A stretch of 11,287 nt of DNA from a virus. A program made the position numbers and the translations under genes. Position 1 is the first letter of the stretch, and every line of letters begins with the position of its first letter. Positions 8,082 to 8,719 of the stretch are shown here, piece by piece. Location: UHGV virus genome UHGV-0262291. The stretch is one strand, 5' to 3'. The notes under the pieces were generated by a model. The model worked only from the letters and a program-made list of their open reading frames with translations. It did no database searches and had not been told where the DNA came from.

Positions 8082-8507
8082 TCAATGTACTGCCACAGCA
8101 TTTCCTGCCGGGCCACCACGGTTCATCTGATTGAAACCGGCGATTGCCACTGCGACAAAATCATCAGCGTCTCTCACCAGTCGCTCCCGCGTCTCCACCA
8201 GCTCCCGAAAATAAGCTGAACTGTGGCTGCACATTCTGGCCACCAGCAAAGGTGGCATTGCCTTTTCGATCGCTGGTAACAACGCCTGAATTTTTTCAAC
8301 TGCATCAGGGGTGTCTTTCTCTACCCAGCGGAAAATTTTCTGGGTATTACGGGCCAGGGCTTCCGGATGGCTGTCGTCATACAGTTCCGGGAACGTCATT
8401 CCCAGCTCGAAATACGCTTTGGTAATTTTCGCAGCCGGTACTTTTTCGCCGTCCGGATGCGCCCAGACATTCATCGCCATGCGGATGTGTTCATGCTTGA
8501 TTTTCAT
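8082..8507 (-). CDS. YdaT-like protein (CII-like position, second gene of the early-right operon)
   Basis: 141-aa ORF starting MKIKHEHI..., with an ATGA overlap to the upstream Cro/YdaS-like gene. Resemblance to Rac prophage YdaT is from memory of its N-terminus and gene context and was not searched. Confidence 0.5.
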   Translation of the reverse strand: MKIKHEHIRMAMNVWAHPDGEKVPAAKITKAYFELGMTFPELYDDSHPEALARNTQKIFRWVEKDTPDAVEKIQALLPAIEKAMPPLLVARMCSHSSAYFRELVETRERLVRDADDFVAVAIAGFNQMNRGGPAGNAVAVH

Positions 8508-8719
8508 GAATCATTCTTTCCTTCGTTTGAGGTGCTATCCTGCTTCTTGTAAAGTTCTGGGTTGTATTTCAATTCACCGTTAGTAATTTCATCCAGTTCC
8601 ATTGCGCGAAGTTTGGGAATAACTGCTTTCCACCGCACAACAGCCACATGTGAAATTCCAAGAGCCTCAGCTACTAGTCGCTTTTTTTTGAAATAGCGCA
8701 GAACATCATCTTTGAACAT
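8504..8719 (-). CDS. Cro/YdaS-like HTH regulator (first gene of the early-right operon)
   Basis: 71-aa ORF with HTH-like segment KKRLVAEALGISHVAVVRWK; AGGAG SD 6 nt upstream; divergent from the CI-like gene across an operator-containing intergenic region. Confidence 0.65.
   Translation of the reverse strand: MFKDDVLRYFKKKRLVAEALGISHVAVVRWKAVIPKLRAMELDEITNGELKYNPELYKKQDSTSNEGKNDS

What the first reader, a model, noticed from the sequence alone, without database searches (positions are those of the whole stretch)
8082..8719. Cro/YdaS-like and YdaT-like pair held under the CI-like repressor
The first two early-right genes resemble the Rac prophage ydaS-ydaT pair, whose derepression is reported to be toxic to the host. 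Combined with a repressor that may be non-cleavable, this would make the immunity region behave like a locked addiction module.
Basis: partly seen in the sequence, partly recalled or inferred. Interest (0 to 1): 0.4.

Follow-up and report, generated by a model that had tools for sequence, protein, structure and literature searches.

The report
Ordinary prophage Cro and CII-like regulators
The two genes are the standard Cro-type and CII-type (YdaT) switch regulators of a common E. coli lambda-like prophage, not a toxin or addiction module; the only unusual feature is that the neighbouring repressor has lost the serine it would need to cut itself.

Summary
On the minus strand, 8504..8719 encodes a 71-aa P22-Cro/DicC-type protein. 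8082..8507 encodes a 141-aa YdaT protein, about 96% and 90% identical to two crystallised YdaT proteins (PDB 3C4R, 8BT1) and 33% identical to Rac YdaT. The first gene resembles Rac YdaS only at superfamily level: BLASTP gives no alignment and the Pfam YdaS score is below cut-off.

Three perfect GTAAC-N4-GTTAC operators overlap the inferred PR and PL promoters. The 18-bp YdaT-box footprinted in Rac (ATGATTCATGAAAATCAA) sits exactly on the cro-stop/ydaT-start junction.

Published work on Rac and CP-933P shows that such pairs are Cro and CII analogues. YdaT activates a reverse promoter that feeds the repressor gene. CP-933P YdaT, 90% identical to this one, was not toxic. The "locked addiction module" reading is therefore not supported.

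The aside about a non-cleavable repressor is supported. The LexA/CI-type repressor keeps the Ala-Gly site and the Lys, but Ala replaces the nucleophile Ser. This allele's 41-mer is in 682 of 5,426 complete E. coli genomes, against 8 for a Ser allele.

The known division inhibitors DicF and dicB lie on the opposite, leftward operon, just past the window. The pair itself is already known, so interest is low.

The parts
8504..8719 (-). cro-type gene (71 aa), first gene of the rightward early operon; P22 Cro / DicC family
   Evidence: Pfam P22_Cro 59.4 bits against cut-off 30.2. PHROG 409 transcriptional regulator. PDB 1RZS at E 9e-12. 39% identical to K-12 DicC. No BLASTP alignment to Rac YdaS. 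A Shine-Dalgarno sequence AGGAGAG lies at 8730..8724.
8082..8507 (-). ydaT gene (141 aa), CII functional analogue; its start codon overlaps the cro stop (ATGA)
   Evidence: Pfam YdaT_toxin 40.1 bits against cut-off 21. PHROG 163 CII-like activator. PDB 3C4R at E 8e-89 and 8BT1 at E 3e-81. 33% identical to Rac YdaT. Arg60-Trp61 of the recognition helix is present in the translated sequence.
8497..8514 (-). YdaT-box: on the minus strand ATGATTCATGAAAATCAA, spanning the cro stop and the ydaT ATG
   Evidence: It is the only site in the window within 1 mismatch of TTGATT-N6-AATCAA, against 0.09 expected. The 18-mer is identical to the one at the Rac ydaT start (L002 3678..3695) that was footprinted and mutated in PMC11879457. 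It is also present in relatives L006 and L008.
8749..8762 (.). Operator OR1 (GTAACAATAGTTAC), overlapping the -10 and spacer of the inferred PR
   Evidence: Perfect palindrome; 3 perfect copies in the window against 0.01 expected. The identical sequence sits at the same relative position in L006, L008, L009, L011 and L012.
8746..8775 (-). Inferred PR: -35 TTGACA (8775..8770), 18-nt spacer, -10 TACTCT (8751..8746)
   Evidence: Read from the sequence. It has the same architecture as the inferred PL. The consensus scan did not flag it because the -10 matches only 3 of 6 positions. This is an inference.
8772..8785 (.). Possible weak middle operator OR2 (TCAACCATAGCAAC, 7 of 10 half-site bases), 23 and 25 bp from its neighbours
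   Evidence: Read from the sequence. Inferred by analogy with the tripartite lambda OR; weak.
8797..8810 (.). Operator OR3 (GTAACATTGGTTAC), immediately upstream of the probable repressor start at 8811
   Evidence: Conserved in relatives. It lies inside the first 14 codons of the PGAP-annotated repressor ORF.
8811..9485 (+). CI/LexA-type repressor (HTH_3 + Peptidase_S24; 224 aa from 8811, or 238 aa from the annotated start at 8769). Numbered from 8769: Ala-Gly site at 9105..9110, Ala replacing the nucleophile Ser at 9219..9221, Lys-Lys at 9357..9362
   Evidence: Pfam. Alignment with lambda CI 3BDN. Alignment of 22 family members. Codon comparison. N-terminal domain 57% identical to DicA. More distant homologues start at the residue equivalent to M15.
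9491..9516 (+). Intrinsic-terminator-like hairpin plus T-run after the repressor gene
   Evidence: Read from the sequence: CCCGCA-TTCAT-TGCGGG followed by TTTTTT.
9548..9576 (+). Inferred PL (-35 TTGACT 9548..9553, 17-nt spacer, -10 TACCTT 9571..9576) with operator OL GTAACTCTTGTTAC at 9560..9573
   Evidence: It lies upstream of the ydfA/ydfB/ydfC-like genes.

Best explanation
The interval 8082..8719 holds the first two genes of the rightward early operon of an E. coli lambdoid prophage of the Qin/DicA-DicC immunity type.

**Lysogenic state.** The CI-like repressor occupies the GTAAC-N4-GTTAC operators. These overlap PR (in front of cro) and PL (in front of ydfA-ydfB-ydfC...DicF-dicB), so both operons are silent.

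**When PR fires.**
1. The 71-aa Cro-type protein is made. By analogy with lambda, P22 and CP-933P, it competes for the same operators and turns down repressor synthesis.
2. The translationally coupled YdaT is made. It is a tetrameric HTH protein that fills the role of lambda CII.
3. YdaT binds the YdaT-box lying across its own start codon and activates a leftward (plus-strand) promoter in or near cro. This promoter reads antisense through cro into the repressor gene and favours establishment of lysogeny.

**What is shown and what is inferred.**
- Shown here: the family memberships, the operator palindromes and the YdaT-box.
- Shown by others on homologues: DNA binding, tetramerisation and promoter activation.
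- Inferred: that the same steps operate in this prophage, and where the YdaT-dependent promoter lies.

Any harm from forced expression would be the ordinary overexpression toxicity of phage regulators, not a dedicated toxin function.
For: **Family and structure.**
- P22_Cro 59 bits, YdaT_toxin 40 bits.
- PHROG 163, CII-like activator.
- about 96% and 90% identical to 3C4R and 8BT1.
- similarity to P22 Cro and DicC.

**YdaT-box.**
- It lies at 8497..8514, with 0.09 sites expected by chance.
- It is the same 18-mer as in Rac.
- There it was footprinted, mutated and shown to give up to 29-fold activation of a reverse promoter for racR (PMC11879457).
- CP-933P YdaT binds TTGATT-N6-AATCAA at the ydaS/ydaT junction and activates PRE933P (PMC9986795, PMC8630535).
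- Rac and CP-933P YdaT cross-activate each other's box (PMC11879457).

**Operators.**
- Three perfect copies against 0.01 expected.
- They overlap the -10 and spacer of TTGACA/TTGACT promoters.
- They are conserved in relatives.

**Synteny and context.**
- The order repressor <-> P22_Cro -> YdaT is kept in every relative examined, although the replication modules differ.
- The context is lambdoid: replisome organiser, DUF977, RusA, Q antiterminator, lysis genes, lambda-like head and tail genes, xis and int.
- Qin carries the same arrangement in decayed form: dicA, dicC, and ydfX as a truncated YdaT.
Against: - No experiment exists on this exact prophage.
- The YdaT-dependent plus-strand promoter could not be located. 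The consensus scan found no promoter in 8000..9800, although activator-dependent promoters are expected to be poor matches.
- Rac YdaT (33% identical) is toxic when expressed and also activates host rcsA (PMC11879457). A host-directed effect of this YdaT therefore cannot be excluded.
- The Cro here belongs to a different subfamily from the YdaS proteins studied, so its operator competition is inferred by analogy only.
Confidence: 0.85

Rival explanations
1. Cro/YdaS-like plus YdaT-like are toxic cargo. A non-cleavable repressor holds them permanently silent, so the immunity region acts as a locked addiction module that makes the host depend on the repressor.
For: - Depletion of RacR in K-12 derepresses ydaS-ydaT and kills cells (PMC5700377).
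- Rac YdaT expression lowers CFU by about four orders of magnitude (PMC11879457).
- The repressor here has Ala in place of the nucleophile Ser.
- No sequenced phage isolate carries this repressor at more than 43% identity.
Against: - CP-933P YdaT (about 90% identical to this one) showed no toxicity. The authors rejected the toxin-antitoxin reading (PMC8630535).
- Gene 1 is not a YdaS-family member.
- The YdaT-box places YdaT as a positive regulator of the repressor.
- Cells escape Rac YdaT toxicity by excising the prophage (PMC11879457), so losing the element rescues rather than kills.
- Essentiality of the repressor is generic to lysogens (PMC5917428).
- The known division inhibitors DicF and dicB are on the leftward operon.
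- The same trio occurs at two attachment sites with different integrases.
- In CP-933P, a switch with a repressor lacking the autocleavage motif was still bistable (PMC8630535).
Confidence: 0.07
2. A classical type II toxin-antitoxin pair, as the Pfam names 'YdaS_toxin' and 'YdaT_toxin' imply. One protein would neutralise the other by direct binding.
For: Only the Pfam family names and the two-gene overlapping operon layout.
Against: - The names come from a prediction algorithm. Experiments found no evidence for toxin-antitoxin behaviour (Christensen-Dalsgaard 2010, as cited in PMC5917428 and PMC9986795; PMC8630535).
- YdaT is a tetrameric POU-like HTH DNA-binding protein with a defined operator (PMC9986795).
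- Both proteins are HTH regulators.
Confidence: 0.02
3. YdaT also acts as a host-reprogramming transcription factor, for example by activating rcsA and the Rcs regulon, in addition to its CII-like role. Derepression would then change host envelope and division physiology. This can coexist with the best explanation.
For: - Rac YdaT binds upstream of host rcsA and alters the RcsA/B regulon (PMC11879457).
- Rac and CP-933P YdaT recognise the same box (PMC11879457).
- This YdaT carries the same box and the conserved Arg-Trp.
Against: - It has not been tested for the CP-933P-type subfamily.
- CP-933P YdaT caused no growth defect (PMC8630535).
- Nothing in the window bears on host targets.
Confidence: 0.2

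Closest known systems
YdaT of cryptic prophage CP-933P (E. coli O157:H7; PDB 8BT1) and the unnamed homologue PDB 3C4R
   Same: About 90% and 96% identical over the full length. It is the second gene after a Cro-type gene and lies upstream of the replication genes. A TTGATT-N6-AATCAA-type inverted repeat sits at the cro/ydaT junction (PMC9986795).
   Different: - In CP-933P the partner is a YdaS-type Cro. The repressor there is PaaR2, with no S24 domain, followed by the paaA2-parE2 toxin-antitoxin pair.
- Here the partner is a DicC/P22-Cro-type protein and the repressor is a full-length HTH+S24 protein.
- The left half-site reads ATGATT, as in Rac, rather than TTGATT.
ydaS-ydaT-racR of the K-12 Rac prophage
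   Same: The layout is the same: a repressor divergent from a Cro-like gene followed by ydaT. The 18-bp YdaT-box over the ydaT start codon is identical. Both YdaT proteins begin MKIKHEHI.
   Different: - YdaT is only 33% identical.
- Gene 1 gives no BLASTP alignment to YdaS.
- RacR is an unrelated 158-aa HTH protein without an S24 domain.
- The toxicity data come from Rac YdaS and YdaT, not from this subfamily.
dicA-dicC-ydfX and the ydfABC-DicF-dicB operon of the K-12 Qin prophage
   Same: - Cro is 39% identical to DicC.
- The repressor HTH domain is 57% identical to DicA.
- YdfX is a truncated YdaT homologue at 36% identity.
- The leftward operon has the same order, ydfA, ydfB, ydfC ... DicF, dicB.
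   Different: - DicA is 135 aa and lacks the S24-like C-terminal domain.
- Qin is heavily decayed, whereas this immunity region also occurs in an apparently complete lambda-like prophage.
- The NCBIfam DicA and DicC subfamily cut-offs are not reached.
Lambda cI-cro-cII and P22 c2-cro-c1 immunity regions
   Same: - The divergent repressor/cro layout is the same.
- Palindromic operators overlap PR and PL.
- An activator gene follows cro, with its binding site at the cro/activator junction.
- The repressor aligns with lambda CI over both domains, and Cro aligns with P22 Cro.
   Different: - YdaT is unrelated in sequence to lambda CII. It recognises an inverted repeat rather than a direct repeat (PMC9986795).
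- The repressor lacks the Ser nucleophile.
- No N-like or cIII-like gene was recognised.

Membership tests
YdaT family (Pfam PF06254; CII functional analogues of lambdoid prophages) | Profile match above the curated cut-off | tested here: met
   40.1 bits against cut-off 21. PHROG 163 at E 2.5e-44.
YdaT family (Pfam PF06254; CII functional analogues of lambdoid prophages) | Full-length similarity to structurally characterised members (POU-like HTH domain plus C-terminal tetramerisation helix) | tested here: met
   3C4R at E 8e-89 over residues 1-141 and 8BT1 at E 3e-81 over residues 2-141. The fold and the tetramer are inferred from this identity; they were not modelled here.
YdaT family (Pfam PF06254; CII functional analogues of lambdoid prophages) | Conserved recognition-helix Arg (Arg60 in CP-933P, R57 in Rac) followed by Trp | tested here: met
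   The sequence reads ...QKIFRWVEK..., with R60 and W61. This aligns with the R-W of Rac YdaT. The role of the residues is from PMC9986795 and PMC11879457.
YdaT family (Pfam PF06254; CII functional analogues of lambdoid prophages) | Cognate inverted repeat (YdaT-box) at the cro/ydaT junction | tested here: met
   8497..8514, 1 mismatch to TTGATT-N6-AATCAA, against 0.09 expected. Identical to the Rac box.
YdaT family (Pfam PF06254; CII functional analogues of lambdoid prophages) | Activation of a reverse promoter that drives repressor expression | not testable with these tools
   No convincing plus-strand promoter was found. This needs reporter assays.
YdaS family (Pfam PF15943) | Profile match above the curated cut-off | tested here: not met
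   18.5 bits against cut-off 30. K-12 YdaS scores 107.7 bits.
YdaS family (Pfam PF15943) | Pairwise similarity to Rac YdaS | tested here: not met
   BLASTP finds no alignment with E <= 100.
P22 Cro / DicC-type Cro proteins (Pfam PF14549) | Profile match above the cut-off and similarity to P22 Cro and DicC | tested here: met
   59.4 bits against 30.2. 1RZS at E 9e-12. DicC 39% identical at E 2e-17. The narrower NCBIfam DicC subfamily cut-off is not reached (56 bits against 130).
P22 Cro / DicC-type Cro proteins (Pfam PF14549) | First gene of the operon divergent from the immunity repressor, with shared operators in the intergenic region | tested here: met
   Gene order. Operators at 8749 and 8797. 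Binding of Cro to these operators was not tested.
Self-cleaving LexA/CI (S24) repressors | HTH domain plus S24 fold, with an Ala-Gly cleavage site and a Lys general base | tested here: met
   Pfam HTH_3 62.5 bits and Peptidase_S24 61 bits. QAG and LKKV align with lambda A111-G112 and the KK containing K192.
Self-cleaving LexA/CI (S24) repressors | Nucleophile Ser in the G-[DEN]-S-M motif | tested here: not met
   The motif is GDAM, with codon GCG at 9219..9221. More distant homologues, and the 88%- and 66%-identical relatives, have Ser. The fold places it in the family, but it is probably not a self-cleaving member.
Type II toxin-antitoxin / addiction module | A toxin with a cellular target, neutralised by a labile antitoxin, so that loss of the module kills | not testable with these tools
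   No sequence feature supports it. Published tests on homologues were negative for toxin-antitoxin behaviour (PMC8630535; Christensen-Dalsgaard 2010 as cited in PMC5917428). Loss of Rac rescues cells (PMC11879457).

The most novel reading that the evidence does not exclude
The notable feature is not the Cro/YdaT pair but its repressor: a natural 'ind-minus' CI.

- The S24 nucleophile Ser has been replaced by Ala at least twice in this repressor lineage. The codons are GCG here and GCA in a 70%-identical Salmonella relative, next to TCA and TCG Ser alleles.
- The Ala allele has almost completely displaced the Ser allele in E. coli: 682 against 8 of 5,426 complete genomes.
- It sits in at least one apparently intact lambda-like prophage.
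- It occurs at two attachment sites with different integrases.
- No sequenced phage isolate carries this immunity type.

If the repressor is truly blind to RecA, these common prophages must switch through the Cro/YdaT/CI circuit itself (stochastic bistability) or through an unrecognised antirepressor. Alternatively they are being 'grounded' by host-level selection, while the immunity cassette spreads by recombination.
Probability: 0.35. Interest if true: 0.45.

Novelty: already known. Interest (0 to 1): 0.15.

Why it matters
It matters mainly as a correction. The Pfam and PGAP label 'toxin YdaT family protein' invites toxin or addiction readings. This locus carries every hallmark of the Cro/CII-type decision module that has been worked out experimentally for Rac and CP-933P, so the label should not be read that way.

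The practical consequences are modest:
1. Annotation of this very common E. coli prophage immunity type, present in about 13% of complete genomes, can be made precise. It consists of a DicA/DicC-type immunity region plus YdaT, with defined operators and a defined YdaT-box.
2. The Ser-to-Ala repressor allele is a testable natural case of loss of SOS inducibility in a widespread prophage family. Many of its carriers are Shiga-toxin-producing or enteropathogenic strains, in which prophage induction has clinical relevance.

Tried and rejected
- **BLASTP of gene 1 against Rac YdaS.** No alignment was found, so 'YdaS-like' was rejected except at superfamily level.
- **Consensus promoter scan of 8000..9800.** It found nothing. 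PR and PL were then assigned by eye from TTGACA/TTGACT boxes with weak -10 hexamers. No YdaT-dependent (PRE-like) plus-strand promoter could be assigned, and several candidate hexamer pairs in 8515..8740 were too poor to report.
- **YdaT-box-like sites in the repressor-cro intergenic region.** Rac YdaT also binds there, but none was found here within 3 mismatches.
- **Phage isolates with this immunity region.**
  - Megablast matched only the ydaT/replication side, and the match ended at window ~8512 or ~8563 depending on the phage.
  - tblastn with the repressor reached at most 43% identity.
  - tblastn with Cro reached at most 49% identity.
- **Antirepressor gene.** None is annotated in the intact-looking prophage or in the other three copies examined. 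Small hypothetical ORFs were not examined.
- **Rfam at permissive threshold over 8000..11287.** It gave only a sub-threshold Trp-leader hit on the repressor terminator, which I judged to be chance.
- **Literature searches for a described natural Ser-to-Ala CI allele.** Nothing specific was found. They returned only the general precedent of non-cleavable repressors controlled by antirepressors (PMC3121763).
- **A hypothetical TCG (Ser) version of the window's own 41-mer.** It is absent from all complete E. coli genomes.
- **Structure prediction.** It was not run, because the protein is about 90-96% identical to solved structures.

Full report
**1. What is there**

The window is the early region of an E. 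coli lambdoid prophage.
- A 1.7-kb segment spanning the finding (7900..9600) is at least 80% covered in 698 of 5,426 complete E. coli genomes. The best matches are 99.9% identical.
- The whole window is 98.5% identical to a prophage at ompW in strain O17_K12a.
- On the minus strand, 8504..8719 (71 aa) and 8082..8507 (141 aa) fill the reported interval exactly. They overlap by ATGA.
- Downstream on the same strand lie a replisome organiser (6940..8016), a DUF977 gene and further early genes.
- Divergently, on the plus strand, lies an HTH_3 + Peptidase_S24 repressor gene that ends at 9485.

**2. Gene 1 is a Cro, but not a YdaS**

- It passes Pfam P22_Cro (59.4 bits, cut-off 30.2) and fails YdaS_toxin (18.5 bits, cut-off 30).
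- It matches the P22 Cro structure 1RZS at E 9e-12.
- It is 39% identical to Qin DicC over its full length.
- BLASTP finds no alignment with Rac YdaS.
- K-12 YdaS itself passes the P22_Cro model.

**3. Gene 2 is a bona fide YdaT**

- It passes Pfam YdaT_toxin (40.1 bits, cut-off 21) and falls in PHROG 163, 'CII-like transcriptional activator'.
- It is about 96% identical to PDB 3C4R and about 90% identical to PDB 8BT1, the CP-933P YdaT.
- It is 33% identical to Rac YdaT.
- The recognition-helix Arg60-Trp61 is present.

**4. Regulatory DNA**

*Operators.*
- Three perfect GTAAC-N4-GTTAC palindromes occur in the window, against 0.01 expected: at 8749, 8797 and 9560.
- The first overlaps the spacer and -10 of an inferred PR: TTGACA, 18 nt, TACTCT, followed by an AGGAGAG ribosome-binding site and the cro ATG.
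- The third overlaps an equivalent PL: TTGACT, 17 nt, TACCTT. PL lies in front of ydfA/ydfB/ydfC-like genes.
- The same operator sequences sit at the same relative positions in relatives whose repressors are only 66-88% identical.

*YdaT-box.*
- The only site in the window within one mismatch of the published YdaT operator TTGATT-N6-AATCAA lies at 8497..8514, against 0.09 expected. This is exactly on the cro-stop/ydaT-start junction.
- Read on the coding strand it is ATGATTCATGAAAATCAA. The same 18-mer covers the Rac ydaT start codon.
- In Rac it was footprinted, mutated and shown to mediate up to 29-fold YdaT-dependent activation of a reverse promoter that feeds racR (PMC11879457).
- CP-933P YdaT binds the equivalent site and activates PRE933P (PMC9986795, PMC8630535).
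- The box also accounts for the shared N-terminus MKIKHEHI in YdaT proteins that are otherwise about 33% identical. The half-site AATCAA is encoded in codons 2-4.

**5. Mechanism**

Taken together, this is a lambda-style switch.
- The repressor sits on OR and OL.
- Cro is the first PR product.
- YdaT is the CII analogue. It binds at the cro/ydaT junction and drives leftward transcription towards the repressor gene.

The family memberships and DNA sites are shown here. The biochemical steps are shown on homologues. Their operation in this prophage, and the position of the YdaT-dependent promoter, are inferred. The consensus scan found no promoter.

The order repressor <-> P22_Cro -> YdaT is conserved in all relatives retrieved, although their replication modules differ. 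Homology with sequenced phages such as Evi, Tritos and vB_EcoS-640R1 stops at about 8512, inside the box. So ydaT and its box travel with the replication module, whereas cro and the repressor form a separate immunity cassette.

**6. The toxin/addiction interpretation**

*Evidence on toxicity.*
- Toxicity on derepression or overexpression is documented for Rac YdaS and YdaT (PMC5700377, PMC11879457).
- Jobling argued that these are Cro and CII equivalents, and that repressor essentiality is generic to lysogens (PMC5917428).
- Jurenas et al. showed regulator function for the CP-933P proteins. They found no toxic effect of the CP-933P YdaT, which is the close relative of this protein (PMC8630535).
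- In Rac, cells recover by excising the prophage (PMC11879457). That is the opposite of addiction.

*Where the known toxic cargo lies.*
- The immunity type here is closest to Qin dicA/dicC.
- DicF and dicB follow the ydfABC-like genes immediately beyond the right end of the window.
- The best-established toxic cargo kept silent by this repressor is therefore on the leftward operon, not in 8082..8719.

I therefore rate the addiction reading at about 0.07.

**7. The repressor**

- Aligned with lambda CI, the Ala-Gly site and the Lys are retained, but the nucleophile Ser149 position is Ala: GDAM, with codon GCG at 9219..9221.
- From established knowledge of LexA S119A and lambda CI Ser149 mutants, such a protein should not self-cleave.
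- Relatives carry TCA-Ser (88% identical), GCA-Ala (70% identical, Salmonella) and TCG-Ser (66% identical). All more distant homologues have Ser. This implies at least two changes at the site.
- A 41-mer centred on the codon finds the Ala allele in 682 of 5,426 complete genomes. A TCA-Ser allele is found in 8, and a TCG version of the window's own context in none.
- No phage record out of 50,697 encodes this repressor at more than 43% identity.

Even so, the cassette is not static.
- Identical repressor, Cro and YdaT proteins occur in an apparently complete lambda-like prophage at ompW.
- They occur in defective copies at the same site.
- They occur in prophages with a different integrase and different Q genes next to yccA.
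- No antirepressor is annotated in any of these copies.

Whether these prophages are SOS-blind, use another trigger, or are being grounded cannot be decided here.

**8. Verdict**

The gene identities and the non-cleavable repressor are right; the toxin/addiction mechanism is not supported.
- The pair belongs to an already characterised kind, so interest is low.
- The Ser-to-Ala repressor allele is the one lead worth an experiment.

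Noticed in passing
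window 9219..9221 (repressor gene 8811..9485, + strand): The S24 nucleophile Ser is replaced by Ala (GDAM, codon GCG), while the Ala-Gly site and the Lys are kept. The Ala allele's 41-mer is in 682 of 5,426 complete E. coli genomes, against 8 for a Ser (TCA) allele. A 70%-identical Salmonella relative also has Ala (GCA), whereas the 88%- and 66%-identical relatives have Ser. No sequenced phage carries this repressor at more than 43% identity.
   Followed up: partly
window 8769..8810: The PGAP-style repressor start at 8769 is probably 14 codons too far upstream. A perfect operator (8797..8810) lies inside those codons, and more distant homologues begin at the residue equivalent to M15 (8811). 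An ATG directly after a -10-like TAACAT suggests a leaderless mRNA, as for lambda cI.
   Followed up: partly
window 3782..4107 (- strand): A hok/sok type I toxin-antitoxin locus: Rfam sok scores 121.7 bits at 3932..4107, and a Hok-type ORF is annotated as HokD in the matching genomes. This is a genuine addiction-type module in the same window, unrelated to cro/ydaT.
   Followed up: partly
just beyond window end; L004 41437..41488 and 41663..41851: DicF sRNA (76.7 bits) starts at about the last base of the window, and dicB follows about 225 bp later. The leftward operon (ydfA, ydfB, ydfC, a 133-aa ORF, DicF, dicB) mirrors K-12 Qin and carries the known cell-division inhibitors.
   Followed up: partly
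L005 3347..3637 (K-12 Qin ydfX): The K-12 protein YdfX (96 aa) is a truncated YdaT homologue: 36% identical to the window's YdaT over 95 residues, E 4e-8. So dicC-ydfX in Qin is a decayed cro-ydaT pair.
   Followed up: partly
window ~8512 (homology break against phages Evi, Tritos, vB_EcoS-640R1, 813R8, 204576): A mosaic junction lies inside the YdaT-box. At 96-98.5% identity, these phages share ydaT and the replication gene but carry a different cro and repressor cassette.
   Followed up: partly
L013 and L014 compared with L004: Identical repressor, Cro and YdaT proteins (same RefSeq WP accessions) occur in prophages at two attachment sites, ompW and next to yccA. These prophages have different integrases, different excisionase-region proteins and different Q antiterminators.
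   Followed up: partly
window 7571..7623 and 7841..7882 (inside replisome-organiser gene 6940..8016): Two clusters of closely spaced CGTGAC(A) repeats lie 260-270 bp apart. They look like origin iterons embedded in the O-like gene, as in lambda.
   Followed up: no
L003 (strain AST46) and L001 (strain DLI.5a) compared with the window at 134..2284: The 99.9%-identical copies in these strains have lost the Q antiterminator through a RusA/methyltransferase fusion. In AST46 the capsid-to-tape-measure region is also deleted. The window itself retains intact Q-like (1086..1907) and RusA (1904..2284) genes.
   Followed up: no
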